Assembly (NCBI GenBank): GCA_964016885.1
Contig: OZ024743.1
Span: 198,028,001 to 198,092,000, forward strand
Reading direction: 5' to 3'
Source of the DNA: Eledone cirrhosa
Lineage: Eukaryota
DNA: 64,000 nt
Shown piece by piece: positions 7,711 through 62,669 of the stretch (the first letter of the stretch is position 1; the number at the start of each line of letters is the position of its first letter). The notes below the pieces were generated by a model. The model made no database searches. It worked only from the letters and a program-made list of their open reading frames with translations, and was not told where the DNA came from. A program made the translations under genes and the position numbers.

Positions 7711-7832
7711 GGAGGTGAGTTTTATTGTAGTACAATAAAGCAATGCAGATATCGGATAAGAAGCACTCTACAGTTGTAGGACTGGAGTATACATAATATA
7801 TAAGATCAAAAGATGGTTAAATGAGTTCCATG

Positions 7833-10116: not shown

Positions 10117-10187
10117 TATTTTATCTGATGAAAACACAAATGTTATTGCATGATGATATTTGTTTTTGAAATGCGCATAATAAAATA
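10117..10187 (+). ncRNA. Type I hammerhead ribozyme motif in PLE terminal repeat
   Basis: Stem I TATTTTAT/ATAAAATA, CTGATGA at 10125-10131, long stem II, GAAA at 10168-10171, palindromic stem III ATGCGCAT, AUA cleavage triplet. Confidence 0.8.
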
Positions 10188-10767: not shown

Positions 10768-12015
10768 TTAGACGATATTGCGTGTCATCCCTTGAGGAGA
10801 GTAAGCAAAAAGTCCATTCCTGCTCCCTGCGCGGGAACAGGCAACATAAAGTTGGCCATGGGAGAAGCATGGCTCCCCCAAATGGATGCCCGCCACCGAC
10901 AATGTTTGCCCTTGTGACTTGTTAATGGACATGGCAAAAAATGGTCTCATCGGGAATTGGGATCGCCGGAAATCGAATGGGATATCTGACGCCGAGGGGA
11001 AAAGGTTCATCCTTGGAATGAAAACATTCTCCCCTCTTCCGCACCCCGTTACAATGGTGGCCTCAATCAAGTGTGTGTCAGTGACTTGACGACCATGCGA
11101 GTACCGTTGCACTGCTTTGGTGGACGCAAGTTCCTTATTAGCATAATGGGACAGCCAACCCTAAGCTTAATAATGTGAGGTGGGAGCCCTGGGGGCTCAA
11201 GGAGATTTAATAACTCAACCGGATAATTAACGATATCGTCGGGGTCTGATTTGAAGATGTGCTCTTTACCGGGAATCTTCTCAATCAGCTGCTCGTTAAT
11301 AAAATTAACCATGGTATTTTTCGGAGCAAGGATGGCTCTTTCGCTGAGCCAATCGAGGTTTTTAAAGTTAGATGAGACATTAGGAAAAACTGCTTCCCAA
11401 AGGTCAGAAGGGCTGCTCACAATGTTGCACAGGGTGTCGATTGCTATGCCACCCTTGTCATCAGCAGGGATCTTGCCCTCACCAAGTGCTAAAATGTTCT
11501 GTGCTGCAGACATGTTGTCACCATGCAAATGAGCACGCATATTTGTGCTCAGGTACAAACTATTCACCTGGAGCCACAACATGGACGACTTAAGACAGGC
11601 ACGCACTTCATCAGCTCTTGTCCATTTGGGGATGACAGGCAGCCTTTTCCGAAAATCCGCTGATAGCAGAAGGGTTACGCCACCCATAGGAGCCGTAGAA
11701 TCCCTAATGTCTTTCCGGGCCCCGTCCAATGCCTCAAGGGCACCCTTGTGTGCCATTGTGCACTCATCCCAAACAATGAGTCAACATCTTTTGAGAACCA
11801 GAGCTTTGTGTGAACTCTTGCTGATATTGCATGTTGGTGTCTCAGTTTTTACTAAATCCAAAGGGAGTTTAAAGGTTGAATGTGCTGTCCTGCCTCCCGG
11901 CAGCAAAGTAGCAGCGATCCCGGACGATGCAACGGACAACGCAACTTTTTTCTCCTGACGAATCTTAGCAAGAATCAAATTCGTTACAAAAGTTTTTCCA
12001 GTACCCCCAGGAGCG
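10768..12015 (-). pseudogene. Helitron PIF1-like SF1 helicase, frameshifted
   Basis: Walker A region near 11990-12015, ASSGIAATLLPGGRTAHSTFKLPL, RAILAPKN, LRVGCPIMLIRNL, FAMSINKSQGQTL, FSHGQLYVACSR. Confidence 0.92.
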
Positions 12016-12049
12016 TTTTTTATTGGGGGGGGGATCAGGGTATTTTTTT

Positions 12050-12779
12050 TTTGACCTTGAGGTATAACCAGTCAGTAGTTCCTTCAAAAGCTCTGGCGGT
12101 TCCGGAAGAGGGGGCAAGGTGACCTTACCGTTTAAGCAGCACATTGCAGGTGGCTCCCCAGCCCACTTTGTAGCATTGCAGAATTGGCAATTGAAGCGCA
12201 TCTCGCCTATATTTATGTCAGAGCGCATCGAGTAATTAACGTTTTGCTCATACTTGAAAGCCAGTAGGTGCCAGTAAGGGCTGTTGGGGCTCGTCACACC
12301 GCGTGCAGCTTCTCGCCGTCGACTGTTACGCTTGAACGTAGAACATTGGTCGTGTGGTTGGTGGGAAGGCCTGGCAGCAATAGCAGAAGCAACATTTGCA
12401 ATGTTAATGGACCGCCCGTCTGCATCTTCAGAAGCCATGGAAGTAGTCATAGCCGCAGCGTTCGTAGGAAGGCGAGCCGTCCGTTGTTTTAAACGTTCCA
12501 AAGACCTGGAAGCAGCATTAGTCGCATCGTTTCTAGCCAGGCGCTTCGACCTTTGTTTCCGGCTCTCTGAAGCCCTGGAAGAAGCCTGGTATGAAGCCAT
12601 TTTGGCTAGGCGTGCGGTGCGCTGTTGGAAACTTTCAGCGGCTCGACATTCTGCTGAACGTAAGGCTGTCTGTGAAAGTCTTGAGGCATTTTCCTCAGAG
12701 GACTCGTTTGCTATAGTAGCCTTTTGCGCCACTGCTGACGCGTATGTCAACTGAGGCGACTTCTCTTTTTAGGTGGCAT
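12050..12779 (-). pseudogene. Helitron RepHel N-terminal region (Arg/Ala/Glu-rich repeats, CxxC..CC motif)
   Basis: CQFCNATKWAGEPPAMCCLNGKVTLPPLPEPPELLKELL is typical of Helitron N-termini; no Rep domain follows. Confidence 0.75.
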
Positions 12780-13164
12780 TTTATGTCCAAAAGAAAGGGT
12801 GAAAGTTACTTCTACAGAAAAATTGAGTTTGAAAGTCTACTGTCTGTTTATGAATATTGTTATTGTTGTTGTGATACAAATGTTAGTAAGTAAATGGGTA
12901 TCGAAAAATAAAGGGTGAAAGTTACTCAACATAAAAATTGACTTTGAAAGTATAAGGCTGATAATTGAATGTAAAAAGATTGATAAGAAAGACCCCCCTA
13001 AAAAAATTACAGGTATTTGTATGTATGTGTGTATTTTTATGTAGAAAAGAAAGGGTTAAAGTTACTTCTACAGAAACATTTAGTTTGAAAGTGTAAGGCC
13101 GATGTGTGTGTAAATTAAGTGACAGGTATTTGTATGTATGTGTGTATATGTATGTATGTGTGTA

Positions 13165-13694
13165 TATGTATGTTTTCTCTTTCTCTTAATTTCGAGTATA
13201 TTTTTTTGACCGGCCACCTTCCTGGTGGCAAGGTTGTAAAAGAAGAGAAATTGTCATCCCTTGAATCGCAAGAATGTTTTGCAAATTTTGAAGGTGCCAG
13301 CTATCGCAGCCATTTGTAGACTATGAATTAGGGAGCTGCGCTTTTTGTCCGCAAATCCAAGTTCGGTCATACTTTGGTCCAAGCGGGTTGGTATATAACC
13401 CGTAGCACCAATAATGATGGGTATGAAGCTAAAGGTGTATCTTGGATACTGGATTTGTAAACTCCTCATCAATGGTCCGTAGATGTCCTCCTTCTCCTGT
13501 ATTTTTCTGACAACGTTTACATCAAGTGGGCAGCTGATCTCCACAACAGAACACGTTTTCAATGTGTGGTCCCAAACTACAATATCAGGCCGGTTGTGCT
13601 TTAATTTGGTGGCAGTTTTTATTTTCAGGTTTCACCAGTATTCCTTAGTGCCATCTGTCTCAATATATTCTTCCTCGTTTGTTGTTAATTTTGT
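13165..13694 (-). mobile_element. 3' fragment of an R4/Dong-like RLE retrotransposon in a TATG-rich tract, nested in the Helitron
   Basis: HNRPDIVVWD and VVEISCPLD..EKEDIYGPL..FIPIIIGATG; TATG-type repeats on both sides. Confidence 0.85.
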
Positions 13695-14844
13695 ATGTAT
13701 GTATGTATGTATGTATGTATGTATGTATGTATGTATGTATTAAAGGTTGAAAGTTACTTCAACATAAAAATTGACTTTGAAAGTATAAGGCTGATAATTG
13801 AATGTAAAAAGATTGATAAGAAAGCCCCCCCCAAAAAAAAATTTACAGGTATTTGTATGTATGTGTGTATTTTTATGTCGAAAATAAAGGGTTAAAGTTA
13901 CTTATACAGAAAAATATAGTTTGAAAGTGTAAGGCCGATTGAAAAACTTACAGTTTAGTAAATGAAAGTCAGCTTCGAAATGGAGCTAAAACAAACTGTG
14001 TATGCGTTGATTGATTGAAATTCCCGCGTTCCTGTTTCTATGACGTCAATCGTAACCATACCAACATATATGTGTGTATGCACCCACATATATGTGTGTA
14101 TATGTTTTTTTTCAATGTTTCTCTTTTTCACAAACACTTATAAGAGAAGGTAGCAATTTTAAGGTGAGGTGATGAAGGGAGTAGATATAGGAAACGTATA
14201 TCATATGAGAGAGGAGAAATCATCGATTGTTGAAATAAATCGATTTTTCCGTAATTGTAGCATTTTTTACCCAATAATTTCGCCCATGACCCAAGTTAGA
14301 ATATTTGTAAACATTCTGCTTAATTATTCATTCAATATTTTTGGAATTGTGTAAATGTATAAAATTGAAACATACATACAGACACAAAAATCTGCCTTTT
14401 ATAGATAATGATGATATAAATAACAATATTAACGAAGATCGCTGGTATAAATACAGCGTCCTTCGGTCATATATATATGTGTGTGTATGTGTGTGTGTGT
14501 GGGGTGAGTATGTGTAGTGTTAAAATATCACACATAATCGATGAATGAGGGATGGAGCACACAATGTATGTGGATATGTGAAGTTTAGTTGTGTTTTTAT
14601 CTCCATTCCAAAACATGCGTACTTTATGCATCTCGCTAATAAGGCTCTGGACATTTGAGTTGCTCTCATCAAACCGGCCCTGGTGCGTTTTCATATGTAT
14701 GCGCGTGTGTGTGTATGTGTGTGTGTATGTGGATGTGTGTGTGTGTGTATGACGAACGTATGCAACATTCTTCTACTGAATTGCAGGCACAAAGTAAATA
14801 GTCGATTCGTTGCTATAGAAGAAGATATTTACTAAGGTTCAAAA

Positions 14845-46604: not shown

Positions 46605-47140
46605 TATTGTTTCTACTTTTCGCACAAGGTCAGCAATTACCCCAGTGCATTATGGTACTTTATTTTATCGATACCGTAAGGATGAATGGCAAAGTTAACC
46701 TCGACAGGATTTAAATTCAGATCGTAAAGGGGCGTAACTCTATGATGCAGAGCATGGCGTCTCACCCTCTACCGATACTACCAATCCACCGCCCTAATAT
46801 TCTAATATTTGGATTTGTAGTATCGGTAGATTAAACGGCCATTTATGGTCTGAGTTCAAACCGCCGAGGTTAAATTTGCCTTTCATCCTTACGGAGTCAA
46901 TAAAATAAAGTACCAGTAATATTGGGGTGAATTTAATCGACTTTCCCTTCCCCCCAAATTACTGGCCCTCTGCCTATATAAGAAACCATTATTATTATTA
47001 TTGCTGAGTTCAAATCCCGCCGAGGTTGACTTTGCCTTTCATCCTTACGGGGTCGATAAAATAAAGTACCAGTAATGCACTGGGTAATTGCTGGCCTTGT
47101 GCCAAACGTAGAAACAATTATTATTATTATTATTATTATT
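46605..47140. mobile_element. SINE cluster: one minus copy (46605-46795) head-to-head with two plus copies ending in (TTA)n
   Basis: SINE consensus on both strands; (TTA)n tails at ~46989-47002 and 47118-47140. Confidence 0.88.
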
Positions 47141-50100
47141 GTTCTTTGTGTCTCAGTCATGGCTAATCTTAGAATAGGTGGCATAAATGTACGTGGCCTG
47201 GGCTCGTCTTGGAAGCAGGGGCACCTGCTGAACGATCTCAGGTCGCTAAACATAGATGTGGTGGACATCAGCGAGACCAGAATCTCCGAGGCACAGGCTT
47301 TCGCACCGATCTTCGGCGGCTACGATGTGTACGCATCTCCCAGCCGTCCTGGATCGGGGGGGGGGGGGGAGTTGCTGAGCTTTTTCGGAGAGGCTTGGAT
47401 CTCGTCGTACGGGCCATCTTCCTGGACACCGAAGGTAAGTTGGTGGTGCTGGACGTGACCAGCGGAGACAGGCAAGCTTTCAGGCTAGTGGCCGTCTATG
47501 CCCCGACAGGAGCAGGGCGGCCTGATTTCTTCCGTCCTTTCTTGGAACGTCCCACTTTTTAGTGTTAATGGGCGACTGGAACGGGATCTTAGATGCACGC
47601 TCGGACTGTGTGGGATTAGCGGATAGGGGAGGAGGGTGCAAGAGCCTTACCAACCTGCTCAGGTGTTTTGAACTGTCTGACAGGTACCGATTGGATTTCC
47701 CGAATGTGCCAATGTGGACTTGGACAAACCGTATCGGGTCATCCAGATCATATCTAGATAGAGTATTTTGTAGGGAAATAGATAGGTCTAGCACAGGCTG
47801 TCCACAATTCAAGATAGTCAGCTACACGGACCACAAATTCCTGATCTGTGTGGTTGACTTAGATAGGCTTCATACACAAGGACCCGGCTACTGGAAGCTA
47901 GACGCGTCGTTACCAGCGCGCAAAGCCTACAGAGACCGGATTAGCGAACTAGTTAAGCGTGCGTTGACGGGGGCCATCTTCAACAAGTGGTGGTTTGCTC
48001 TGAAAAGAGCGATTAGAACAGAGTCCATTAGGTTTAGTAAGGCTTTAGCAATAGAGAAAAATAGAGCAGAGGGAGGACTAGTTAGAAAATTAGACGAGGC
48101 GCTTCGCAAAGGCATCGCGACCGACGTACTTGTGGCGAAATTGGCCCTTGACCAATTCTTCAATGCAAAGCATGAAGGTTGCGTTGTCAGAGCTAGGGTG
48201 CGTGCTCTCAGACACGATGGGCCCGAGTGGCGGAGGCGCGTCGTGGCAACAAAGCCACGATCCGGTCTTTGGTGGACCACGACGGGCGCATGCTACTCGA
48301 TCCCGGGCAAATGTGTGAAGCTTTTCAGCGACACTTCACTCAACTGTTCGGGGGCAGTGGCGGGCCGGATCGAGGGATGGACTTTAGTGTCTACCTCGAC
48401 GGACTGCCACGGCTCTCGGCCACTGAGGTGGAGTGTTGCGAAAAGCCGATGACAGCCGCTGAAGTACGGGAGGCAATGACTGGCTGCACAAGGGGTAAAT
48501 CGCCTGGTTTGGATGGTCTTCCCTATGAACTTTACGTACAAATGCCACACTTGTTCGGAGGCCTCTTGGCGGACGTCTACTGCAACTGGCAACAGAACGG
48601 GAGAATTCCCAGCTCTGTGAGCCGAGGAGCGGTGGCGCTGCTGAGAAAGGATCCGAACAAGGGGGATAACATAGATAATCTTAGGCCCATAACTCTGCTA
48701 AACACAGAGTTCAAGATTTTGGCCAAGGTGCTAGCAAAGAGGTTGACGCTTGTCGTTGGTGGTCTGGTGGGAGAGGCGCAGACATGCGCCATTCCCGACA
48801 GATCCATCCACGATAACCTCCACCTCATGCGATACATCGTAGAGAGGGTAGCTAGGGAACCTGGCACAGGTGGGTCTTTGATCAATTTAGATCAGTCGAA
48901 AGACATCGATAGGGTCGACCATCGTTACCTAGCGGCAGTCCTGAGGGCGGCTGGCTTTGGGCCCGTCTTCAGAGGCTGGATCGCTACCATGCACAGCGAC
49001 ATCTGCTCTGTAGTGAGAGTGAACGGTCACCTTTCGGAACCGTTCAATATCATGAGCTCGGTCCGCCAAGGATGTCCCCTCTCGTCCCTATTGTACGTAT
49101 TGACTCTCGATCCATTACTGCACAAACTGGAGACGTTGAGGGGGGTCCCGCGCGAACTAGGATGCGGAAGATCCGTGTCAGCATATGCGGACGATGTCAC
49201 CGTAGTGGTGTCGAACGCCAAACACATCGAGGCGATCGGCACTACACTAAGAGAATACGAAGCGGTGACAGGAGCAATGATCAACCAGGAAAAGTCAGTG
49301 GGCCTGCAGCTCGGCACCTGGAGAGGCAGGTCCATGCCGTCCAAAAGCGTCGCCGGGCGCTGGACGGAGGGACCGGTTAAATTGCTAGGTGTCCGGTTCG
49401 GTCCAGAGCTCCAGACGGACAAAAACTGGGACGAGGTGACGAGCAGGGTGGCTTCTCTCACCCAGAAATGGGCCGAGAGGAAGCTATCCCTGAAAGGTCG
49501 AGCGGAGGTGGCTAACGCGTACATCGCGTCCGTCATCTACTACCGCCTGACCGTCGTACCTTGTCCTAAGCCCCGCCTGACTGCGCTGGAGCGTTTGCTC
49601 TTTCGCTTTTTGTGGAAGGGACGCGCTCCGATGGTCAGGCGGTGCATCTACTGTCAACACCCGGTACGTGGAGGGCTGGGCGTGCCGTGGCTGATGATGC
49701 GCAGACACGCGCTCAGGCTACGACATCTCCACCTCTTCCTCGACGGTGATCAGGTGTGGTCGCCGTTTGCAAGACACGTATTTTCCCAGCTCGTCTCCTT
49801 GACGGAGCTAAGGTCCTGGGTCAAGCGAAGACCGAGAGGGAGCGCTTGGAGACTGGAATGTCTTCAGGCGCTCACAGCTCTCGACCAATCGGGCAATGTG
49901 ATCGGTGGAAACTCCACCTTGGCGTTCTATAGAGGATTAGTGGAGGGGAAGAGCGACGACGTACTTGGAGAAACTCTAGGCGTCGACGAAAATCAACTAG
50001 CCAATCTCTTCGGAAGGATTTTCTGGCCGGGGCCTATGGACAACTTCCAGAAATCCCTGGCCTGGCAGTGCTACCGGGGAGCTTTGCCAGTTCGGGATAA

Positions 50101-50830
50101 ACTCTACAGGCATGGAGCTGCCGTCAGCCGGGCATGTCCGAGATGCGCACAGGGCGACGAAACCGTCCTGCACGCACTCGTCCAGTGTCCGAGCTTTGCT
50201 GACTTGTGGGTTTATGTCGAACACCTGCTGTCGCGTTTAGGACGGATCCGGCTATCATCTGAGTCCATCGTGAGGATTGCCCCGCACTCCTCCTTTAGCC
50301 GGGAAGGGCAGGAAGTTTTTATCTGTCTGGTGGCCATGGCGAAAGAGATAGTATGGTGGACACGTTTGAAAGGGCTGAAAACGAGTACTTACCTCTTCGG
50401 TGATGCTCTGATTGACTTTTTCAAATTTCATTTGAAAAGGAAAATCAGAGTAGAGAGGGAAGTGCTCTCTTCCCAGCATTTTGTTGAAAGATGGGTGAGA
50501 GAAGCAAGAATGGCCCGAGTGAATGGGCCTACTCTGAGTATATATCTGTAAATTAAAGGTGGAAAACTGGGAGAGGGCACTTGCCTTGGTGGTCAGGGTC
50601 ATTGTGGCTTTTTACTGGGCTTTTTCCACAAATGTCCCTCCGAAGTCTGCCCCCTATTGGGGAATTTTTCATTGTTATTTTTTGTTACATCCTCTGTTTT
50701 TGTTTTTTACACGCAGAAATGCCCATTCATACCGTCCTGCATTGTCCTGCACTGTCCTTAATGTCTACTTTATGTAAACCCTTGTGGTTAATAAAGAAAT
50801 CATTATTATTATTATTATTATTGTTATTTT
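47141..50830 (+). mobile_element. Tx1/L1-clade LINE (ORF2 plus 3' UTR, no ORF1) flanked by (TTA)n
   Basis: APE-RT-CCHC ORF2, a 250-bp 3' UTR with AATAAA, and (TTA)n at both ends. Confidence 0.92.
47159..50551 (+). pseudogene. Tx1-like ORF2 (APE endonuclease, RT, zinc knuckle), about three frameshifts
   Basis: MANLRIGGINVRGL, ISETR, VAVYAP, MGDWN, SYLDR, TDH, GPGYWKL, KSPGLDGLP, RPITLLN, VRQGCPLS, YADD, CPRC..ETVLHALVQC. Confidence 0.92.
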
Positions 50831-50908
50831 TATTCCTTGAATCTCAGTCATTGATGTTGGTTAACTGGAAAGTCCGTTGGATTGAATATCAAGCCACTAC
50901 CTGCAGCC

Positions 50909-53761
50909 TCAGATATTCAGGACGTATCGGAGGGTTCTTGCCGTTCCAAGCAAGCATGCCTTTTGAAGCGTTCCAAAAAGCATGAAGGGGCCGATTTTCT
51001 TTAACCATCCCTGGAAACCTTTGGAGATAGTCCCCAGTGCGCCTATGACAATCGGGATCACTTTGACTTCATGGCAGTTCCAAATCCTTTTCACCTCCCA
51101 CTTTAGGTCCTGGTATCGGTTTATTTTCTCCCTCTCCTTCTCTTGCACTCTCGTGTCGAACGGGCAGGCCACATCCACAATCAGGCACGATCTTTTTTCT
51201 TTGTCCACAACCACCAGGTCAGGTCTATTGTGTTCCAGTTTTTTGTCCGTCTTTATCCTAAAATCCCACAGCACCTTCACCTGACTGTTCTCCATCACCG
51301 CCTCTGGCCTATGCTCATACCATTTCTCAGAATGTGGTAGATTGTTTACTTTGCACAGGTGCCAGTGGATCACCCTGCCCATCACATCGTGTCTCCAGCC
51401 CTTATAGTGGGTCTGGGCTAGGTGTTTACACTCGGACACAATGTGAGCCACAGTCTCCTCTCTCTCTCCACAGATCCTGCACAGTGGGCTAGCCTCTTCC
51501 TTGTAGATATGGTGCTTCAACCACTTCGTTTTGAGGGCCTGCTCCTGCGCAGCCATTAGCATTCCTTCTGTAGCCTTTTTGAGGTCTCCTCTTCTCAACC
51601 AGTTCCATGCCTGTGGATCTCTAAATTCAGTTTTCTCAAAGAAGGTACTATGAAGGGATTTTCCCTTAAGGCTGCTCTTCCTCCTTGATGTTATTTCCTC
51701 CTTGGATATCCCCTGGCCTACTGTCCCCTCCTTCAGTACAGCTCTGAGCATTGGCTCCTTACTATAGGTCACGTATTTGTATAGGTTGTTTTTCTCCATC
51801 TGAACACAGTCCTCTATGCTGATAAGACCTCTTCCACCCTCAGATCTCCTTAGGTAGAGTCTATCGACATCACTCCTCTTGTGGAACATGTTGTAGATAG
51901 TCAATAGCTTCCTAGTCTTCCTATCCATTTCTTTTTGTTCAGCAACATTCCATCTCAGAATTCCCGCACTGTACCTAATAATAGACACAGCTCGGGAATT
52001 TACTGCGCTTATGGCATTTCTGCTGTTCAGATGTGACTTCAATACGCTCCTTACTCTCCGAATGTATTCAGTTCTTAACAATTCCTTCATTTTTTTGTTC
52101 TTTATGCCATCAGCCTCCAGAACGCCCAAATACTTGTATCCTTCCTCAGAGTCAATTTCCTTTATCATCTCACCTGTTGGTATCTGGATCCCGTTACTTC
52201 TGCTCAACCTACCCCTCTTCATCACAATGACTCCACATTTACCAATACCAAACTGCATACATATATCACTGCTGAAAATACGGACAGTGTCAACAAGCAC
52301 ATCCAACTCCTTCTCACTTTTCCCGAAGAGCTTAAGATCGTCCATGAAGAGGAGGTGATTGATGGTAAGCTCTCCCCTTCCCAACTTGTATCCTGCTCTC
52401 ACTTTTCGCAGCATAATGGTCAAGGGCATCAGGGCAAGGACAAACAACAGAGGGGACAGGCTATCTCCCTGGAAGATACCTCTCTTGATCTTCACGCTTC
52501 CCAAGGATACTCCAGTTGATGTCAACTCTGTCTCCCAGGACCCCATACTCCTGCCCAGCAACTGTCTGATGTTATCTGCCACCCTGAAGATCTCCAGGCT
52601 TTTGGTGATCCAGGAATGAGGCACCATGTCAAATGCCTTTCTGTAGTCTATCCATCCCATGGCAAGATCAGTGTGTCTCCTCCTGCAATTCCCCATTACC
52701 ATCTTATCAATAAGCAACTGGTCCTTTGTACCACGTGACTTCTTTCGGCATCCTTTCTGTTCGTCCGGTAACAAGTTGTTTGTGTGGAGGTGATGGTAGA
52801 TTTCCTCAGACACAATGCTCGTCAACAGTTTCCACATTACGGGCAGACATGTGATAGGTCTATAGTTGGTAACATCATTACCCTTGATTCGGTCTTTCAT
52901 TATCAGAACTGTGGTACCTTTTGTCAACCACTCTGGCACCTCACCCGACACCAAACAGTCATTGAACATGGCCGTCAGCTTCGGGTGGAGGGATGTTAAA
53001 TGTTTAATCCAATACCCCTGCACACCATCTGGGCCTGGTGATTTCCAGTTGGTTAGTTTTTTGGCTTGCCCCTTAAGAGTTTCAACTGTGATACTCAAAT
53101 CAGTCTGTTGTTGTGCCTGCTCACCGATCTCCCTCTGTACTGTCTCAATCCACCCTGCCTGGGCATTGTGTCTAACATCCTGCTCCCATATTCCTCTCCA
53201 GAATGTTTTAGCTTGTTCCGCCCCAGGGATCAAGTCGTTGCCTCTTTCTTTCCCCTCAAGCTGTCCAAACAGCATCTTCCGGTTGTTGTCGAACATGCGG
53301 TTCTGTTTATACTGACTGACTCTGTTCTCGTATCGCCTGATTTTGGCACTCTTTGCTACAATGCGTTGCTTCAATTCCTCTATGATAATATTTAGCTTTT
53401 TACTCCTAGTTTTGTATTTTATTTCCAGTCTATTTTTAGTGCCTATGTTTTTTAGTGTCCCATTCAGTAGTGACTCAAGCTTTCCTATGTCATTTCTCAT
53501 TTCCCCGATTTGCCCACTCAGTCGCTTCTTCCACCACGGCTCTGCTCTTTCTTGTCTGTTGTTTCCTCTCGCTTTTATACCAAGTAGTTTCCTCACCGTA
53601 TTTGCTGTTGCTTTGAGGATATTGTTGCACTGGTGAAGGCTCCTCGCCTCAAGGTATGGGATGACTTTGTTTACCTTAGCTGTTGTTTCTTTTAACTTTT
53701 TCCTGTCTACAAATCTTAGGTTCATAGGTCTCCCACTATCATTGTTCAATTCATCTACCAC
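50909..53761 (-). CDS. R4/Dong-like RT-RLE polyprotein, copy 1 (N-terminally truncated, frame open)
   Basis: 950-aa ORF with NYRPITCL, DYRKAFD, RGIFQGDSLSP, LLFMDD, CRIC..H..SEC, RHD, NRPD..D. Confidence 0.92.
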   Translation of the reverse strand: MVDELNNDSGRPMNLRFVDRKKLKETTAKVNKVIPYLEARSLHQCNNILKATANTVRKLLGIKARGNNRQERAEPWWKKRLSGQIGEMRNDIGKLESLLNGTLKNIGTKNRLEIKYKTRSKKLNIIIEELKQRIVAKSAKIRRYENRVSQYKQNRMFDNNRKMLFGQLEGKERGNDLIPGAEQAKTFWRGIWEQDVRHNAQAGWIETVQREIGEQAQQQTDLSITVETLKGQAKKLTNWKSPGPDGVQGYWIKHLTSLHPKLTAMFNDCLVSGEVPEWLTKGTTVLIMKDRIKGNDVTNYRPITCLPVMWKLLTSIVSEEIYHHLHTNNLLPDEQKGCRKKSRGTKDQLLIDKMVMGNCRRRHTDLAMGWIDYRKAFDMVPHSWITKSLEIFRVADNIRQLLGRSMGSWETELTSTGVSLGSVKIKRGIFQGDSLSPLLFVLALMPLTIMLRKVRAGYKLGRGELTINHLLFMDDLKLFGKSEKELDVLVDTVRIFSSDICMQFGIGKCGVIVMKRGRLSRSNGIQIPTGEMIKEIDSEEGYKYLGVLEADGIKNKKMKELLRTEYIRRVRSVLKSHLNSRNAISAVNSRAVSIIRYSAGILRWNVAEQKEMDRKTRKLLTIYNMFHKRSDVDRLYLRRSEGGRGLISIEDCVQMEKNNLYKYVTYSKEPMLRAVLKEGTVGQGISKEEITSRRKSSLKGKSLHSTFFEKTEFRDPQAWNWLRRGDLKKATEGMLMAAQEQALKTKWLKHHIYKEEASPLCRICGEREETVAHIVSECKHLAQTHYKGWRHDVMGRVIHWHLCKVNNLPHSEKWYEHRPEAVMENSQVKVLWDFRIKTDKKLEHNRPDLVVVDKEKRSCLIVDVACPFDTRVQEKEREKINRYQDLKWEVKRIWNCHEVKVIPIVIGALGTISKGFQGWLKKIGPFMLFGTLQKACLLGTARTLRYVLNI

Positions 53762-53777
53762 TAAATTTAGGATGTCA

Positions 53778-53848
53778 ACCGTCCTGTATTGTCCTGTACT
53801 GTCCTTAATGTCTACTTTATGTGAACCCTTGTGGTTAATAAAGAAAAC
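53778..53848 (+). mobile_element. ~70-bp Tx1 3'-terminal stub, junction 1
   Basis: Matches 50731-50800 with about four differences; followed by (TTA)n. Confidence 0.9.
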
Positions 53849-53964
53849 TTTATTATTATTATTATTATTATTATTATTGTTATTGTTATTCCTTGAATCT
53901 CAGTCATTGATGTTGGTTAACTGGAAAGTCCGTTGGATTGAATATCAAGCCACTACCTGCAGCC

Positions 53965-56817
53965 TCAGATATTCAGGACGTATCGGAGGGTTCTTGCCGT
54001 TCCAAGCAAGCATGCCTTTTGAAGCGTTCCAAAAAGCGTGAAGGGGCCGATTTTCTTTAACCATCCCTGGAAACCTTTGGAGATAGTCCCCAGTGCGCCT
54101 ATGACAATCGGGATCACTTTGACTTCATGGCAGTTCCAAATCCTTTTCACCTCCCACTTTAGGTCCTGGTATCGGTTAATTTTCTCCCTCTCATTCTCTT
54201 GCACTCTCGTGTCGAACGGGCAGGCCACATCCACAATCAGGCACGATCTTTTTTCTTTGTCCACAACCACCAGGTCAGGTCTATTGTGTTCCAGTTTTTT
54301 GTCCGTCTGTATCCTAAAATCCCACAGCACCTTCACCTGACTGTTCTCCATCACCGCCTCTGGCCTATGCTCATACCATTTCTCAGAATGTGGTAGATTG
54401 TTTACTTTGCACAGGTGCCAGTGGATCACCCTGCCCATCACATCGTGTCTCCAGCCCTTATAGTGGGTCTGGGCTAGGTGTTTACACTCGGACACAATGT
54501 GAGCCACAATCTCCTCTCTCTCTCCACAGATCCTGCACAGTGGGCTAGCCTCCTCCTTGTAGATATGGTGCTTCAACCACTTCGTTTTGAGGGCCTGCTC
54601 CTGCGCAGCCATTAGCATTCCTTCTGTAGCCTTTTTGAGGTCTCCTCTTCTCAACCAGTTCCATGTCTGTGGATCTCTAAATTCAGTTTTCTCAAAGAAG
54701 GTACTATGAAGGGATTTTCCCTTAAGGCTGCTCTTCCTCCTTGATGTTATTTCCTCCTTGGGTATCCCCTGGCCTACTGTCCCCTCCTTCAGTACAGCTC
54801 TGAGCATTGGCTCCTTACTATAGGTCACGTATTTGTATAGGTTGTTTTTCTCCATCTGAACACAGTCCTCTATGCTGATAAGACCTCTTCCACCCTCAGA
54901 TCTCCTTAGGTAGAGTCTATCGACATCACTCCTCTTGTGGAACATGTTGTAGATAGTCAATAGCTTCCTAGTCTTCCTATCCATTTCTTTTTGTTCAGCA
55001 ACATTCCATCTCAGAATTCCCGCACTGTACCTAATAATAGACACAGCTCGGGAATTTACTGCGCTTATGGCATTTCTGCTGTTCAGATGTGACTTCAATA
55101 CGCTCCTTACTCTCCGAATGTATTCAGTTCTTAACAATTCCTTCATTTTTTTGTTCTTTATGCCATCAGCCTCCAGAACGCCCAAATACTTGTATCCTTC
55201 CTCAGAGTCAATTTCCTTTATCATCTCACCTGTTGGTATCTGGATCCCGTTACTTCTGCTCAACCTACCCCTCCTCATCACAATGACTCCACATTTACCA
55301 ATACCAAACTGCATACATATATCACTGCTGAAAATACGGACAGTGTCAACAAGCACATCCAACTCCTTCTCACTTTTCCCGAAGAGCTTAAGATCGTCCA
55401 TGAAGAGGAGGTGATTGATGGTAAGCTCTCCCCTTCCCAACTTGTATCCTGCTCTCACTTTTCGCAGCATAATGGTCAAGGGCATCAGGGCAAGGACAAA
55501 CAACAGAGGGGACAGGCTATCTCCCTGGAAGATACCTCTCTTGATCTTCACGCTTCCCAAGGATACTCCAGTTGATGTCAACTCTGTCTCCCAGGACCCC
55601 ATACTCCTGCCCAGCAACTGTCTGATGTTATCTGCCACCCTGAAGATCTCCAGGCTTTTGGTGATCCAGGAATGAGGCACCATGTCAAATGCCTTTCTGT
55701 AGTCTATCCATCCCATGGCAAGATCAGTGTGTCTCCTCCTGCAATTCCCCATTACCATATTATCAATAAGCAACTGGTCCTTTGTACCACGTGACTTCTT
55801 TCGGCATACTTTTTGTTCGTCCGGCAACAAGTTGTTTGTGTGGAGGTGATGGTAGATTTCCTCAGACACAATGCTCGTCAACAGTTTCCACATTACGGGC
55901 AGACATGTGATAGGTCTATAGTTGGTAACATCATTACCCTTGATTCGGTCTTTCATTATCAGAACTGTGGTACCTTTTGTCAACCACTCTGGCACCTCAC
56001 CCGACACCAAGCAGTCATTGAACATGGCCGTCAGCTTCGGGTGGAGGGATGTTAAATGTTTAATCCAATACCCCTGCACACCATCTGGGCCTGGTGATTT
56101 CCAGTTGGTTAGTTTTTTGGCTTGCCCCTTAAGAGTTTCAACTGTGATACTCAAATCAGTCTGTTGCTGTGCCTGCTCACCGATCTCCCTCTGTACTGTC
56201 TCAATCCACCCTGCCTGGGCATTGTGTCTAACATCCTGCTCCCATATTCCTCTCCAGAATGTTTTAGCTTGTTCCGCCCCAGGGATCAAGTCGTTGCCTC
56301 TTTCTTTCCCCTCAAGCTGTCCAAACAGCATCTTCCGGTTGTTGTCGAACATGCGGTTCTGTTTATACTGACTGACTCTGTTCTCGTATCGCCTGATTTT
56401 GGCACTCTTTGCTACAATGCGTTGCTTCAATTCCTCTATGATAATATTTAGCTTTTTACTCCTAGTTTTGTATTTTATTTCCAGTCTATTTTTAGTGCCT
56501 ATGTTTTTTAGTGTCCCATTCAGTAGTGACTCAAGCTTTCCTATGTCATTTCTCATTTCCCCGATTTGCCCACTCAGTCGCTTCTTCCACCACGGCTCTG
56601 CTCTTTCTTGTCTGTTGTTTCCTCTCGCTTTTATACCAAGTAGTTTCCTCACCGTATTTGCTGTTGCTTTGAGGATATTGTTGCACTGGTGAAGGCTCCT
56701 CGCCTCAAGGTATGGGATGACTTTGTTTACCTTAGCTGTTGTTTCTTTTAACTTTTTCCTGTCTACAAATCTTAGGTTCATAGGTCTCCCACTATCATTG
56801 TTCAATTCATCTACCAC
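53965..56817 (-). CDS. R4/Dong-like RT-RLE polyprotein, copy 2 (truncated, mosaic of copies 1 and 3)
   Basis: 950-aa ORF offset by exactly 3056 bp from copy 1. Confidence 0.92.
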   Translation of the reverse strand: MVDELNNDSGRPMNLRFVDRKKLKETTAKVNKVIPYLEARSLHQCNNILKATANTVRKLLGIKARGNNRQERAEPWWKKRLSGQIGEMRNDIGKLESLLNGTLKNIGTKNRLEIKYKTRSKKLNIIIEELKQRIVAKSAKIRRYENRVSQYKQNRMFDNNRKMLFGQLEGKERGNDLIPGAEQAKTFWRGIWEQDVRHNAQAGWIETVQREIGEQAQQQTDLSITVETLKGQAKKLTNWKSPGPDGVQGYWIKHLTSLHPKLTAMFNDCLVSGEVPEWLTKGTTVLIMKDRIKGNDVTNYRPITCLPVMWKLLTSIVSEEIYHHLHTNNLLPDEQKVCRKKSRGTKDQLLIDNMVMGNCRRRHTDLAMGWIDYRKAFDMVPHSWITKSLEIFRVADNIRQLLGRSMGSWETELTSTGVSLGSVKIKRGIFQGDSLSPLLFVLALMPLTIMLRKVRAGYKLGRGELTINHLLFMDDLKLFGKSEKELDVLVDTVRIFSSDICMQFGIGKCGVIVMRRGRLSRSNGIQIPTGEMIKEIDSEEGYKYLGVLEADGIKNKKMKELLRTEYIRRVRSVLKSHLNSRNAISAVNSRAVSIIRYSAGILRWNVAEQKEMDRKTRKLLTIYNMFHKRSDVDRLYLRRSEGGRGLISIEDCVQMEKNNLYKYVTYSKEPMLRAVLKEGTVGQGIPKEEITSRRKSSLKGKSLHSTFFEKTEFRDPQTWNWLRRGDLKKATEGMLMAAQEQALKTKWLKHHIYKEEASPLCRICGEREEIVAHIVSECKHLAQTHYKGWRHDVMGRVIHWHLCKVNNLPHSEKWYEHRPEAVMENSQVKVLWDFRIQTDKKLEHNRPDLVVVDKEKRSCLIVDVACPFDTRVQENEREKINRYQDLKWEVKRIWNCHEVKVIPIVIGALGTISKGFQGWLKKIGPFTLFGTLQKACLLGTARTLRYVLNI

Positions 56818-56833
56818 TAAATTTAGGATGTCA

Positions 56834-56904
56834 ACCGTCCTGTATTGTCCTGTACTGTCCTTAATGTCTACTTTATGTGAACCCTTGTGGTTAATAAAGA
56901 AAAC
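56834..56904 (+). mobile_element. ~70-bp Tx1 3'-terminal stub, junction 2
   Basis: Identical by eye to 53778-53848. Confidence 0.9.
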
Positions 56905-57020
56905 TTTATTATTATTATTATTATTATTATTATTGTTATTGTTATTCCTTGAATCTCAGTCATTGATGTTGGTTAACTGGAAAGTCCGTTGGATTGAATA
57001 TCAAGCCACTACCTGCAGCC

Positions 57021-60000
57021 TCAGATATTCAGGACGTATCGGAGGGTTCTTGCCGTTCCAAGCAAGCATGCCTTTTGAAGCGTTCCAAAAAGCGTGAAGG
57101 GGCCGATTTTCTTTAACCATCCCTGGAAACCTTTGGAGATAGTCCCCAGTGCGCCTATGACAATCGGGATCACTTTGACTTCATGGCAGTTCCAAATCCT
57201 TTTCACCTCCCACTTTAGGTCCTGGTATCGGTTAATTTTCTCCCTCTCATTCTCTTGCACTCTCGTGTCGAACGGGCAGGCCACATCCACAATCAGGCAC
57301 GATCTTTTTTCTTTGTCCACAACCACCAGGTCAGGTCTATTGTGTTCCAGTTTTTTGTCCGTCTGTATCCTAAAATCCCACAGCACCTTCACCTGACTGT
57401 TCTCCATCACCGCCTCTGGCCTATGCTCATACCATTTCTCAGAATGTGGTAGATTGTTTACTTTGCACAGGTGCCAGTGGATCACCCTGCCCATCACATC
57501 GTGTCTCCAGCCCTTATAGTGGGTCTGGGCTAGGTGTTTACACTCGGACACAATGTGAGCCACAATCTCCTCTCTCTCTCCACAGATCCTGCACAGTGGG
57601 CTAGCCTCCTCCTTGTAGATATGGTGCTTCAACCACTTCGTTTTGAGGGCCTGCTCCTGCGCAGCCATTAGCATTCCTTCTGTAGCCTTTTTGAGGTCTC
57701 CTCTTCTCAACCAGTTCCATGTCTGTGGATCTCTAAATTCAGTTTTCTCAAAGAAGGTACTATGAAGGGATTTTCCCTTAAGGCTGCTCTTCCTCCTTGA
57801 TGTTATTTCCTCCTTGGGTATCCCCTGGCCTACTGTCCCCTCCTTCAGTACAGCTCTGAGCATTGGCTCCTTACTATAGGTCACGTATTTGTATAGGTTG
57901 TTTTTCTCCATCTGAACACAGTCCTCTATGCTGATAAGACCTCTTCCACCCTCAGATCTCCTTAGGTAGAGTCTATCGACATCACTCCTCTTGTGGAACA
58001 TGTTGTAGATAGTCAATAGCTTCCTAGTCTTCCTATCCATTTCTTTTTGTTCAGCAACATTCCATCTCAGAATTCCCGCACTGTACCTAATAATAGACAC
58101 AGCTCGGGAATTTACTGCGCTTATGGCATTTCTGCTGTTCAGATGTGACTTCAATACGCTCCTTACTCTCCGAATGTATTCAGTTCTTAACAATTCCTTC
58201 ATTTTTTTGTTCTTTATGCCATCAGCCTCCAGAACGCCCAAATACTTGTATCCTTCCTCAGAGTCAATTTCCTTTATCATCTCACCTGTTGGTATCTGGA
58301 TCCCGTTACTTCTGCTCAACCTACCCCTCCTCATCACAATGACTCCACATTTACCAATACCAAACTGCATACATATATCACTGCTGAAAATACGGACAGT
58401 GTCAACAAGCACATCCAACTCCTTCTCACTTTTCCCGAAGAGCTTAAGATCGTCCATGAAGAGGAGGTGATTGATGGTAAGCTCTCCCCTTCCCAACTTG
58501 TATCCTGCTCTCACTTTTCGCAGCATAATGGTCAAGGGCATCAGGGCAAGGACAAACAACAGAGGGGACAGGCTATCTCCCTGGAAGATACCTCTCTTGA
58601 TCTTCACGCTTCCCAAGGATACTCCAGTTGATGTCAACTCTGTCTCCCAGGACCCCATACTCCTGCCCAGCAACTGTCTGATGTTATCTGCCACCCTGAA
58701 GATCTCCAGGCTTTTGGTGATCCAGGAATGAGGCACCATGTCAAATGCCTTTCTGTAGTCTATCCATCCCATGGCAAGATCAGTGTGTCTCCTCCTGCAA
58801 TTCCCCATTACCATCTTATCAATAAGCAACTGGTCCTTTGTACCACGTGACTTCTTTCGGCATACTTTTTGTTCGTCCGGCAACAAGTTGTTTGTGTGGA
58901 GGTGATGGTAGATTTCCTCAGACACAATGCTCGTCAACAGTTTCCACATTACGGGCAGACATGTGATAGGTCTATAGTTGGTAACATCATTACCCTTGAT
59001 TCGGTCTTTCATTATCAGAACTGTGGTACCTTTTGTCAACCACTCTGGCACCTCACCCGACACCAAGCAGTCATTGAACATGGCCGTCAGCTTCGGGTGG
59101 AGGGATGTTAAATGTTTAATCCAATACCCCTGCACACCATCTGGGCCTGGTGATTTCCAGTTGGTTAGTTTTTTGGCTTGCCCCTTAAGAGTTTCAACTG
59201 TGATACTCAAATCAGTCTGTTGCTGTGCCTGCTCACCGATCTCCCTCTGTACTGTCTCAATCCACCCTGCCTGGGCATTGTGTCTAACATCCTGCTCCCA
59301 TATTCCTCTCCAGAATGTTTTAGCTTGTTCCGCCCCAGGGATCAAGTCGGTGCCTCTTTCTTTCCCCTCAAGCTGTCCAAACAGCATCTTCTGGTTGTTG
59401 TCGAACATGCGGTTCTGTTTATACTGACTGACTCTGTTCTCGTATCGCCTGATTTTGGCACTCTTTGCTACAATGCGTTGCTTCAATTCCTCTATGATAA
59501 TATTTAGCTTTTTACTCCTAGTTTTGTATTTTATTTCCAGTCTATTTTTAGTGCCTATGTTTTTTAGTGTCCCATTCAGTAGTGACTCAAGCTTTCCTAT
59601 GTCATTTCTCATTTCCCCGATTTGCCCACTCAGTCGCTTCTTCCACCACGGCTCTCCTCTTTCTTGTCTGTTGTTTCCTCTCGCTTTTATGCCAAGTAGT
59701 TTCCTCACCGTATTTGCTGTTGCTTTGAGGATATTGTTGCACTGGTGAAGACTCCTCGCCTCAAGGTATAGGATGACTTTGTTTACCTTAGCTGTTGTTT
59801 CTTTTAACTTTTTCCTGTCTACAAATCTTAGGTTCATAGGTCTCCCACTATCATTGTTCAACTCATCTACCACTAAATTTAGGATGTCAACCGAATCTTG
59901 TCCTAGCCCGTCAGCATTCATCTCCTCAGTGGCCATATCTCTGTTCCAGGTATTATTTATCTCAGTATTCAGATCATTGTCTGCTTCGGGTGGTTCCTCC

Positions 60001-60413
60001 GCTCTCAGGACCTCCTCACCTTCATTTCCCGCCGGCTCGCTTGTCTGGCATACTACACCCGCCATCTCCAAGCCATTCTCTCTGCTCAGTTCCTCCAGTT
60101 CCAGCTCGCTTATCCACCCATTAGTTCTTATTACCCGAGCCTGCCCGGCCAAATTTTGTTCATCTAATTTAAATAAACCAATCTCGTTCCAGATGTTATG
60201 CATCCGTCTCCTGTAGCCCCTCTCCTTGGGGTTACTTTTCAGGTAGCATTGCATAACAGTTCTATTCAATTCTTTCGTCCAGTTGGTTCTGGCCCCTTTC
60301 CTTCTTCTTCTTCCTCCAACATCAGCAGTATTTGGTTGACAGTCAGGTTCCTGCTGCTGAGCCAGGGGGCACCTGTTGGGTGAGAGTCTGTCACATGACG
60401 TTCTAGTCTCCAT
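57021..60413 (-). CDS. Full-length R4/Dong-like non-LTR retrotransposon ORF (N-terminal domain, RT, CCHC, RLE), copy 3
   Basis: 1130-aa ATG-initiated ORF; N-terminal WTKELN..MQCY..RGYRRRMHNIW..EQNLAGQARVIRTNGW..LELEEL as in the R4 clade; ~80-nt 3' UTR and (TAA)n tail. Confidence 0.95.
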   Translation of the reverse strand: METRTSCDRLSPNRCPLAQQQEPDCQPNTADVGGRRRRKGARTNWTKELNRTVMQCYLKSNPKERGYRRRMHNIWNEIGLFKLDEQNLAGQARVIRTNGWISELELEELSRENGLEMAGVVCQTSEPAGNEGEEVLRAEEPPEADNDLNTEINNTWNRDMATEEMNADGLGQDSVDILNLVVDELNNDSGRPMNLRFVDRKKLKETTAKVNKVILYLEARSLHQCNNILKATANTVRKLLGIKARGNNRQERGEPWWKKRLSGQIGEMRNDIGKLESLLNGTLKNIGTKNRLEIKYKTRSKKLNIIIEELKQRIVAKSAKIRRYENRVSQYKQNRMFDNNQKMLFGQLEGKERGTDLIPGAEQAKTFWRGIWEQDVRHNAQAGWIETVQREIGEQAQQQTDLSITVETLKGQAKKLTNWKSPGPDGVQGYWIKHLTSLHPKLTAMFNDCLVSGEVPEWLTKGTTVLIMKDRIKGNDVTNYRPITCLPVMWKLLTSIVSEEIYHHLHTNNLLPDEQKVCRKKSRGTKDQLLIDKMVMGNCRRRHTDLAMGWIDYRKAFDMVPHSWITKSLEIFRVADNIRQLLGRSMGSWETELTSTGVSLGSVKIKRGIFQGDSLSPLLFVLALMPLTIMLRKVRAGYKLGRGELTINHLLFMDDLKLFGKSEKELDVLVDTVRIFSSDICMQFGIGKCGVIVMRRGRLSRSNGIQIPTGEMIKEIDSEEGYKYLGVLEADGIKNKKMKELLRTEYIRRVRSVLKSHLNSRNAISAVNSRAVSIIRYSAGILRWNVAEQKEMDRKTRKLLTIYNMFHKRSDVDRLYLRRSEGGRGLISIEDCVQMEKNNLYKYVTYSKEPMLRAVLKEGTVGQGIPKEEITSRRKSSLKGKSLHSTFFEKTEFRDPQTWNWLRRGDLKKATEGMLMAAQEQALKTKWLKHHIYKEEASPLCRICGEREEIVAHIVSECKHLAQTHYKGWRHDVMGRVIHWHLCKVNNLPHSEKWYEHRPEAVMENSQVKVLWDFRIQTDKKLEHNRPDLVVVDKEKRSCLIVDVACPFDTRVQENEREKINRYQDLKWEVKRIWNCHEVKVIPIVIGALGTISKGFQGWLKKIGPFTLFGTLQKACLLGTARTLRYVLNI

Positions 60414-60982
60414 TTCACCGTTATTCGAACTGTTTATGTTCGATATTTAAACACTCTTATCGAGGATTGGCGAATGTATGTTTACATAGCCATCTGTGGA
60501 TCCGCCATCCCACTTGGCCCTTGTGTGGCATTATCACCACGCTGTATACGGACACACATAAACAAACAAACACACGGGCAGAAAGGGCCCCAAAAATGAA
60601 TAAGCATAAGTTTCATTGTAATGTAGTATTCGAATGTCTGACTTAGTTTTTGTTTTTTAAGTTTTACTTTTTCCCCCCTCTTCTCTGTCCGTCCGCCTGC
60701 TTCTCTCTTCATTCTTATTTTCTTTACGTTTTTGGGGTTTCTTTTTTTGTTTTTGTTTTTCTCTGTTTTTCTCGTTTTTTACTGTTGTTGCTGTGCTGCT
60801 TTTGTTGTTTGTTTTTTCTTTTTTCTTTTGAGTCTATCTATATATTTTGATGCCTTCCTCTTTGTTAGTAGTAGGAATTCTATAATGTGGAAGTGGTAGC
60901 CAGCAGAGACTAGCGGCGTTGGCGATACTGAGACAGTGGTGGCGGTGATGTCGATACCGAGGCAGTGGTGGCGGTGATGCGA

Positions 60983-61639
60983 CCGTATTACTGTAGTGAT
61001 GGTGCTGTAGCGGTGGCAGCAGCAGTGAAGGAGTCACGGGGTGGTGGCGGCGGTGATGGGATAGTGGTGGTAATGATGGCCGTAGTGAGCGGTGGCGGTG
61101 AAGGTGAAAATGAAAATGCTGTTGTGTTTAGTGTACACAGATGATGGGGTGGGTGGTGTATCTAGTTTCTGGTGTTGGTGAGTTTCGCTGTCCTATATAG
61201 TGTAGCCAGAGGAGAGGAGGGGGGGTTCTTCTTCTTCCATTTATAGCCATTTTATTATTTTTTTTTTTTGGGGATATACAGTGTACAATACAAAGTTGAA
61301 TATTTGAATATTTGAGCCGTATTACTGTAGTGATGGTGCTGTAGCGGTGGCAGCAGCAGTGAAGGAGTCAAGGGGTGGTGGCGGCGGTGATGGGATAGTG
61401 GTGGTAATGATGGCCGTAGTGAGCGGTGGCGGTGAAGGTGAAAATGCTGTTGTGTTTAGTGTACACAGATGATGGGGTGGGCGGTGTATCTAGTTTCTGG
61501 TGTTGGTGAGTTTAGCTGTCCTATATAGTGTAGCCAGAGGAGAGGAGGGGGGGGGGGGGTTCTTCTTCTTCCATTTATAGCCATTTTTTTTTGGATATAC
61601 AGTGTACAATACAAAGTTGAATATTTGAATATTTGAGCC
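60983..61639 (+). repeat. Two-copy tandem duplication (~335-bp unit)
   Basis: CCGTATTACTGTAGTGATGGTGCTGTAGCGG starts at ~60983 and ~61317; collinear to GAATATTTGAGCC. Confidence 0.9.
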
Positions 61640-61804
61640 TTATAACAATATATTTTGGGTCCGAATTTTTTGGGGCTCAAGCCGGGTGCTTTACGTAGCA
61701 TTTGTACTAAGAGTTGTTATTTCACAAATGATTTAAATATGTTAAAAATTCAAAACTTACGGGAGCGATTTCATGACCTCCGTCACCTCGTGCGTCTTCT
61801 TCCC

Positions 61805-61887
<83 letters not shown>

Positions 61888-62669
61888 GTTGGGTGGTCGA
61901 CTGGCAGTCGACTGAGAGCATCGGACATCATCCTTAATAGCATAGCGTTACGACCATTTAAGATCTGTGTTCAAATTCCACCGAGGTCGGGATTCTACAT
62001 CTCTTTCTCTCCATATAGATAAATAGATACATTTTGATATATGTACTTCTGCTCTTAACAGTGACTTTTAGTAGAGCTGCTTCAATTTAGATCAAACGCC
62101 CTCTACTTCTAGCAGCGTTGGTCCCCCTGTATCCTTATATTGTAACGACCTCACCATGTGCGTTCATAGTTTCTTTTGAATCTATGATGGATGGTCGTTT
62201 CTAATGCGTTTATTAAAACTAATTTCTACTAAGGATGCGTTGGTTGATGCACTTCTATGTTTCCTGGCACAGAAAAAGGTGCAACGTGTCTTTCGGCTAG
62301 CACAGCAAGGTATATTAACAAATAATAATAATAATTTCTTTGGTATTTGAGAGCACAGATTACGGTACCAGCGAAGTTTGAAAATGGTAACAATGGAAAG
62401 TAGGGATTTTGAATAAAGTTTCCCGAACCAAGTATAAGAAGAGAGCAATAAACATACCCTGTCAGAGTTGAAGTCATGTAGTGAGGGAAAGAATAAGTTA
62501 GATCAGAAATTTGGGCATGCATCAGCATGTAGAGAGGAGAAAATAGGAAGAGAAAAGTAAGAAAACAGAAAGAGTGAAAACGGAGTAAGCTGAGAGAAAA
62601 ATCGAGAGTTTCTGCGCTGGTAAAGAAACAGTTAATCAAAGAAAGAGCCAGTAGCGTTTCAGTAAAAAT

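What the first reader, a model, noticed from the sequence alone, without database searches (positions are those of the whole stretch)
50802..60535. Triple tandem array of an open-frame R4/Dong-like element whose middle copy is a recombinant
Seen: three copies at an exact 3056-bp period, none with stops or frameshifts. Copies 1 and 3 differ at 12 aa over the shared 950 aa. Copy 2 matches copy 1 at the 4 N-terminal sites (P, A, R, N) and copy 3 at the 8 C-terminal sites (V, R, P, T, I, Q, N, T), with one private change at 55759. SNPs place the switch between 56167 (copy-3 allele) and 56294 (copy-1 allele). Inference: this is the product expected from unequal crossing-over in a two-copy array, i.e. 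DNA-level amplification of a retrotransposon. An assembly chimera would look similar.
Basis: partly seen in the sequence, partly recalled or inferred. Interest (0 to 1): 0.75.

Follow-up and report, generated by a model that had tools for sequence, protein, structure and literature searches.

The report
Retrotransposon pair caught becoming a triplet
Two separately inserted copies of a young jumping gene sit head to tail, and the third copy between them is a clean hybrid of the two, likely made by misaligned recombination (a known first step from jumping gene to satellite DNA), although an assembly error would look the same.

Summary
Three copies of a Dong/R4-type (RT + restriction-like endonuclease) LINE lie on the minus strand at a 3056-bp period; the middle copy B follows the low copy C at 7 of 7 upstream sites and the high copy A at 15 of 15 downstream sites, switch 56168-56293, one private change. 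New here: A and C are not duplicates. They belong to different subfamilies of a very young, abundant family and each has its own private changes; B combines private alleles of both. Only A is full length (5' end 61804); B and C are cut at one base and joined through a 70-bp stub of a Tx1/L1-type LINE. So: dimer by separate insertions into one (TAA)n, then one homology-driven duplication. Open frames reflect youth (55 of 57 other copies open); A and B carry a change at an invariant RT glycine. A second such triplet lies 39 Mb away. No reads could test the assembly (about 25-30% artefact). The mechanism is published (PMC5932611); the scan noted the shared AAT landing pad elsewhere in this genome before. 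Ordinary, neat example.

The parts
47117..47141 (+). (ATT)n run at the truncated 5' end of the APE-type LINE; follows a SINE-like repeat (about 47004-47116)
47142..50800 (+). Older Tx1/L1-type LINE (APE endonuclease, RT, zf-RVT), cut near the start of ORF2, frame broken into 99, 308 and 784 aa pieces; AATAAA at 50790-50795; about 94-95% identical to young family copies
50802..50834 (.). (ATT)n/(AAT)n run shared as tail by the APE-type LINE (+) and copy C (-)
50835..53781 (-). Copy C: 5'-truncated Dong/R4-type element, older subfamily, 7 private changes; open 956-aa frame 53779-50909
53778..53849 (+). Stub 1: last ~70 bp of a young-type APE LINE; 4-bp microhomology with the element at 53778-53781
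53850..53890 (-). (AAT)n tail of B, identical to the tail of A
53891..56837 (-). Copy B: recombinant; 5' 544 bp = C (0 differences, 7 to A), 3' 2277 bp = A (1 difference, 15 to C)
56168..56293 (-). Interval of the switch from C alleles to A alleles (126 bp)
55759..55759 (-). Only base private to B (K533N); seen in 0 of 60 other family stretches at 99% or more
56834..56905 (+). Stub 2: identical to stub 1; the junction 31-mer occurs only at these two places in the assembly
56906..56946 (-). (AAT)n tail of A
56947..61804 (-). Copy A: full-length 4858-bp element, youngest subfamily; ORF 60413-57021 (1130 aa from ATG: RT, CCHC, PD..D..K endonuclease); 5' UTR with a ~330-bp internal repeat (60983-61646)
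61805..61887 (-). (AAT)27 at the 5' flank of A, remnant of the target microsatellite

Best explanation
Copies A and C are two different-subfamily copies of a young TAA-repeat-associated Dong/R4-type LINE, likely inserted separately into one nested (TAA)n site, and copy B is a single-switch A/C hybrid, likely made when A and C mispaired and recombined in 56168-56293, turning a dimer into a trimer. Steps: (1) inferred: C inserted into the (ATT)n tail of an older APE-type LINE. (2) inferred: a young APE-type LINE landed at C's 5' side; all but its last ~70 bp and the first 1.9 kb of C were lost at a 4-bp microhomology, either during that insertion (L1-mediated deletion) or by a later deletion. 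(3) inferred: A inserted into the stub's tail. (4) shown: B carries C's 5' alleles and A's 3' alleles, tail and stub. (5) inferred: this came from unequal exchange between sister chromatids or homologues, or a template switch in repair that leaves the same product, recently (about a tenth of the age of A and C by my arithmetic from 1 versus 6-7 private changes; wide error). The array is probably neutral and not a source of active enzyme.
For: Single switch at 22 sites. C shares all 7 subfamily-marking alleles, on both sides of the switch, with L065 and L089; A matches the commonest young type; B's allele string is found in none of the other copies and holds private alleles of both A and C. The stub is the young APE-LINE type seen 28 times in fetched loci and differs from the local flank at 3 internal sites and at the tail start, so it is not a copy of that flank. 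25 of 30 other truncated copies have (AAT)n at their 5' end and C has none, so C's end looks secondary. Head-to-tail stacks are common: 18 of 57 copies; 11 of 57 are tail to tail with the APE LINE. A second triplet with one repeated junction and a 1144-bp period, short enough for any long read, has its middle copy equal to the full copy at 13 of 13 sites. No N gap in the window; no second contig carries the junction. Precedent: PMC5932611 (passages), PMC7058536 (passages).
Against: One mismatch in 6238 bp and identical microsatellite tails are also what a false duplication would give. No read-level support: no contig bridging the junction was listed in 4 runs of 2 samples, and no raw or long reads holding the stretch were offered. 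The second triplet has no mismatch at all in its repeated unit, so it could share an assembler error. The order of steps 1-3 is not shown: A and C have similar private loads (6 and 7), which also fits one joint insertion.
Confidence: 0.65

Rival explanations
1. The genome holds only the A-stub-C dimer, and B is a false tandem duplication made by the assembler, for instance by leaving one haplotype in C and re-entering the other in A; the base at 55759 would be a heterozygous site or an error.
For: The repeated 3056 bp are near-exact (1 mismatch) with equal tail lengths; the product is identical in sequence to an unequal crossover; false duplications on one scaffold are documented (PMC9516828, passages).
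Against: No gap in the window, while gaps between the pair are a listed hallmark; the assembly has chromosome-size contigs and the repeat is short against long reads (inference; the read type is unknown); a 1144-bp-period triplet of the same build exists.
Confidence: 0.27
2. B was made by reverse transcription: a read-through RNA of the A-stub-C dimer, or a circular RNA, was copied and reinserted in register.
For: Non-LTR RTs can jump templates (PMC8857657, search listing only); the junction has microhomology.
Against: B holds post-insertion private alleles of both A and C, has no new (AAT)n or new junction of its own, and keeps the exact period; the junction is not at an AG acceptor, so back-splicing does not fit; the junction occurs nowhere else.
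Confidence: 0.04
3. B is the parental type: a DNA circle [truncated element + tail + stub] from another locus integrated twice into one resident element, so that A and C are the hybrids.
For: The stub comes from a different APE-LINE copy than the local flank; the structure is formally the same.
Against: A and C each match real subfamily haplotypes across the switch, B matches none; no donor with the junction exists in the assembly.
Confidence: 0.02
4. Three independent insertions into the same microsatellite.
For: Independent head-to-tail stacking is common in this family (18 of 57).
Against: B and C are cut at the same base with the same stub, and B shares private alleles with both neighbours.
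Confidence: 0.01

Closest known systems
Tandem TE dimers formed by double insertion and expanded by unequal exchange (R1 array, hobo array, jockey/DMRT1B tail-to-internal tandems in Drosophila melanogaster; PMC5932611, passages read)
   Same: Site preference makes dimers; tail joined to a 5'-truncated copy; expansion repeats one junction exactly.
   Different: Here only three copies, the parents are two distinguishable subfamilies so that the switch maps to 126 bp, and the repeated junction holds a stub of an unrelated LINE instead of a target duplication.
Dong (Bombyx mori) and Dong-like elements of the R4 clade (PMC7998251 and PMC3774820, passages read)
   Same: Single ORF with RT and restriction-like endonuclease; sits in (TAA)n.
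   Different: Clade placement by tree, the Myb/SANT-like domain and the 5' HDV-like ribozyme were not shown here.
Recently active Dong-R4 and L1-Tx1 families in Octopus vulgaris (PMC13282606, passages read)
   Same: Many young near-full-length Dong-R4 and L1-Tx1 insertions in one genome (1129 and 421 in that paper).
   Different: No call named this window's organism and no sequence was compared with that library; the passages read do not treat tandem or recombinant arrays.
L1-mediated deletion with 5' microhomology (PMC7058536, passages read)
   Same: Very short truncated LINE insert with tail, 1-5 bp microhomology at its 5' join, loss of kilobases beside it.
   Different: Somatic human L1 there; here only one of three possible origins of the stub junction, and the pre-insertion allele is not seen.

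Membership tests
R4/Dong clade (RLE non-LTR retrotransposons) | Single long ORF with a non-LTR RT | tested here: met
   1130 aa from ATG, RVT_1 E 6.7e-22; best solved relatives are R2 proteins (E 8.7e-31) ahead of L1 ORF2 (1e-13)
R4/Dong clade (RLE non-LTR retrotransposons) | C-terminal CCHC knuckle and PD..D..K restriction-like endonuclease, no APE domain | tested here: met
   CCHC at aa 941, PD..D..K..Y at 1026, invariant in 29 of 29 homologues; aligns to the R2 endonuclease; no APE hit
R4/Dong clade (RLE non-LTR retrotransposons) | No N-terminal zinc fingers (unlike R2) | tested here: met
   no C2H2/CCHH pattern in the first 450 aa (pattern scan only)
R4/Dong clade (RLE non-LTR retrotransposons) | Divergent N-terminal Myb/SANT-like domain | tested here: inconclusive
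   a conserved tryptophan-spaced block lies at about aa 40-110 but no Pfam Myb/SANT hit in 32 of 32 members
Dong subgroup | Insertion in (TAA)n microsatellites | tested here: met
   (AAT)n directly 5' of 9 of 14 full-length starts by a strict test and within 40 nt of 25 of 30 truncated starts; nicking itself not assayed
Dong subgroup | HDV-like ribozyme at the 5' end | tested here: inconclusive
   no Rfam match of note in 60300-62100
R4/Dong clade (RLE non-LTR retrotransposons) | Groups with named R4/Dong proteins in an RT tree | not testable with these tools
   none of the 120 listed homologues carries an informative name
TE tandem expanded by unequal exchange | Identical junction repeated between copies | tested here: met
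   two identical junctions, found nowhere else in 3.0 Gb
TE tandem expanded by unequal exchange | Inner copy is a single-switch mosaic of the outer copies | tested here: met
   7|15 split; parents match family haplotypes
TE tandem expanded by unequal exchange | Copy number real in reads and variable among individuals | not testable with these tools
   only short contigs were available for holders

The most novel reading that the evidence does not exclude
This genome keeps a countable series of dimer-to-trimer steps in one young LINE family (this locus plus 1 of 18 other stacks checked), each with a mappable switch point, so the rate of the first step from retrotransposon to satellite could be measured; and the founding A-stub-C dimer may be one insertion in which the reverse transcriptase jumped from a C-type RNA to a read-through A-type RNA carrying 70 nt of antisense Tx1 sequence.
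Probability: 0.15. Interest if true: 0.6.

Novelty: new member of a known kind. Interest (0 to 1): 0.3.

Why it matters
If the reads confirm it, this is a clear snapshot of the earliest expansion step of a retrotransposon tandem, with both parents typed and the exchange mapped to 126 bp. It shows that some young-looking, open-frame LINE copies are made by DNA recombination, so counts of 'recently active insertions' are slightly inflated and subfamily trees can hold hybrids. It opens no new mechanism.

Tried and rejected
Sequencing runs: 24 listed, no RNA holder listed, holders kept only as Logan contigs. Laying 4 runs on 50300-62200 and 4 runs (2 samples) on the 96-bp junction listed no contig bridging the junction; output was cut and filtered and the samples may be other individuals or species, so this says nothing on copy number. 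Spacer as a duplicate of the local flank: rejected. Circle integration with B as parent: rejected. Back-splicing: rejected, no AG acceptor. Remainder of C's 5' part beyond A: none in the window or the next 20 kb. Search for the APE LINE's 5' target: uninformative, the 24 other hits were internal to longer copies; 3 of 10 truncated APE copies had (ATT)n at the 5' side, several of the rest being internal deletions. More same-junction triplets: none seen in 18 further 10-kb stretches covering 17 head-to-tail loci (top three diagonals per stretch). Rfam on the 5' UTR: nothing of note. Protein-atlas look-up of the N-terminal block gave no answer. Paper searches listed no paper on a recombinant Dong triplet; these are word searches of open-access texts only, and supplements were not read.

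Full report
Naming.

Observation. The self-comparison gives diagonals at 3056 and 6112 and no N in the window. Frames are open over 1141, 996 and 996 codons stop to stop. In register, B equals C at 7 sites from 56837 down to 56294 and equals A at 15 sites from 56167 down to the tail, with one private base at 55759. From 53112 to 59349 the sequence is periodic with that one mismatch; a single-switch split of 7 and 15 has chance 1.2e-5.

Anatomy. Only A is complete. Its family begins at 61804, since other genomic copies match up to there, and (AAT)27 follows. B and C begin at element base 1912, residue 174. Between each tail and the next copy lies a ~70-bp piece that is the 3' end, on the opposite strand, of an APE-endonuclease LINE of Tx1/L1 type (name by domain order and recall); an older, frameshifted copy of that family lies at 47142-50800 and shares its (ATT)n tail with C. 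The stub joins the element at a 4-bp microhomology. It is not a copy of the local flank: it matches the young type found 28 times among fetched loci and differs from the flank at three internal sites and at the tail start. The junction 31-mer occurs twice in the 3.0-Gb assembly, both here.

What the element is. RT (Pfam RVT_1), CCHC knuckle and PD..D..K endonuclease, no APE domain, no N-terminal zinc finger; nearest solved relatives are R2 proteins. It sits in (AAT)n: 9 of 14 full-length starts by a strict test and 25 of 30 truncated starts. That is the anatomy and target described for Dong in the R4 clade (PMC7998251, PMC3774820; passages). A tree against named members was not possible, and the Myb-like domain and ribozyme were not shown. 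So it works like Dong; membership is likely but rests on domains and target.

Family context. Searches with A and with C each scored 40 of over 2000 candidates and returned near-identical copies. Of 57 distinct fetched copies (top hits, so biased to the youngest), 55 have an open frame, 18 lie head to tail with another family copy and 11 lie tail to tail with the APE LINE. Open frames and tandem neighbours are thus ordinary here. Earlier scan notes describe the same shared AAT landing pad elsewhere in this genome; my counts agree.

Who is parent, who is hybrid. At the 22 variable sites in the element body, C shares seven subfamily-marking alleles, three 5' and four 3' of the switch, with L065 and L089; A matches the commonest young haplotype apart from its own changes; B's string matches no other copy. 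Against 57 copies A has 6 private alleles, C has 7, and B has one of C's, three of A's and one of its own. B's first 544 bp are 0 from C and 7 from A; its last 2277 bp are 1 from A and 15 from C. Hence A and C are separate products of retrotransposition from different subfamilies and B is their hybrid. This removes the circle-integration reading, in which B would be the parent, and limits 'DNA-level amplification' to the step from two to three.

Function. A and B carry valine at RT glycine 517, which is invariant in 29 of 29 homologues, and asparagine at lysine 1055 (28 of 29 K); B adds K533N (27 of 29 K). B and C lack the 5' UTR and the first 173 residues. The array is therefore likely decaying, not amplified for function (inference; no assay).

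How the dimer formed. C lacks the (AAT)n that 25 of 30 truncated copies have at their 5' end, so its end is probably secondary. Three routes fit the 4-bp microhomology: a truncated APE-LINE insertion that deleted C's first 1.9 kb (as in L1-mediated deletions, where 47 of 63 had 1-5 bp microhomology; PMC7058536, passages); a later deletion between a longer APE copy and C; or one insertion with a template jump from a C-type RNA to a read-through A-type RNA. No remainder of C lies in the window or the next 20 kb. Subfamily age (C older) fits the first two; equal private load fits any. I cannot separate them.

A second case. At G000:C4 near 158.89 Mb a full-length copy is followed by two copies cut at element base 3779 with the same junction (25-bp duplication), period 1144; the middle copy equals the full copy at 13 of 13 sites and the repeated unit has no mismatch. 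I saw it because its second copy fell inside a fetched locus. The other 17 head-to-tail loci, read 10 kb further, showed no such triplet: 1 of 18.

Real or assembly error. A crossover and a false duplication give the same letters. For real: no gap, the private base, a second case with a short period, no other contig with the junction. Against: near-exact repeat with equal microsatellite tails. Runs offered were contigs only; none listed bridges the junction, which is uninformative. False duplications are known on one scaffold and usually show gaps and half depth (PMC9516828, passages). I put real at about 0.7.

Comparison. PMC5932611 (passages) reports that site preference yields TE dimers, often a tail joined to a truncated copy, and that dimers expand, with unequal exchange as the obvious cause and one junction repeated through the array. 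This locus fits that scheme. PMC13282606 and PMC9115989 (passages) report young Dong-R4 and L1-Tx1 families in octopus; no call named this organism, and the likeness is my recall. PMC11899658 (abstract) shows polymorphic tandems for plant LTR elements. Searches listed no report of a recombinant Dong triplet.

Verdict. Observation confirmed, interpretation supported with two limits, mechanism known. New member of a known kind; interest 0.3.

Noticed in passing
L093+L094, positions 7652-14814 (G000:C4:158891652-158898814): Second triplet of the same family: full copy plus two copies cut at element base 3779 with an identical 25-bp-duplication junction, period 1144; an older 94% copy sits upstream.
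   Followed up: yes
window 47117-61887: The whole 14.8-kb stack (APE LINE, C, stub, B, stub, A) lies between two (ATT)n runs, apparently nested in the tail of a SINE-like repeat at about 47004-47116.
   Followed up: partly
L102 6479-6480 (G000:C3 near 194.551 Mb): Very young full-length copy with an internal deletion of element bases 2483-3113, followed by a 539-bp truncated copy identical over 568 bp.
   Followed up: no
L111 4079: An unrelated copy is truncated at element base 1901, 11 bases from the cut of B and C (1912); chance or a pause site.
   Followed up: no
L015 (G000:C4:17069464): The only other fetched APE-LINE end with the same tail-start variant as the stub; no Dong-type element follows it.
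   Followed up: partly
L024 1672-3095: A young APE LINE's tail abuts the interior (not the 3' end) of an older Dong-type copy that also has an internal deletion.
   Followed up: no
window 60983-61646: 5' UTR of the element holds a ~330-bp tandem repeat; many copies (e.g. L042-L044, L046, L047) have a variant UTR only ~87% alike while their ORFs are 99.7% identical, suggesting UTR turnover.
   Followed up: no
window 8105-9764: Inverted repeat of about 700 bp arms (94%), each with a 60-bp minisatellite; MITE- or foldback-like.
   Followed up: no
window 1935-2512: Old fragment (66%) of the APE-type LINE on the opposite strand.
   Followed up: no
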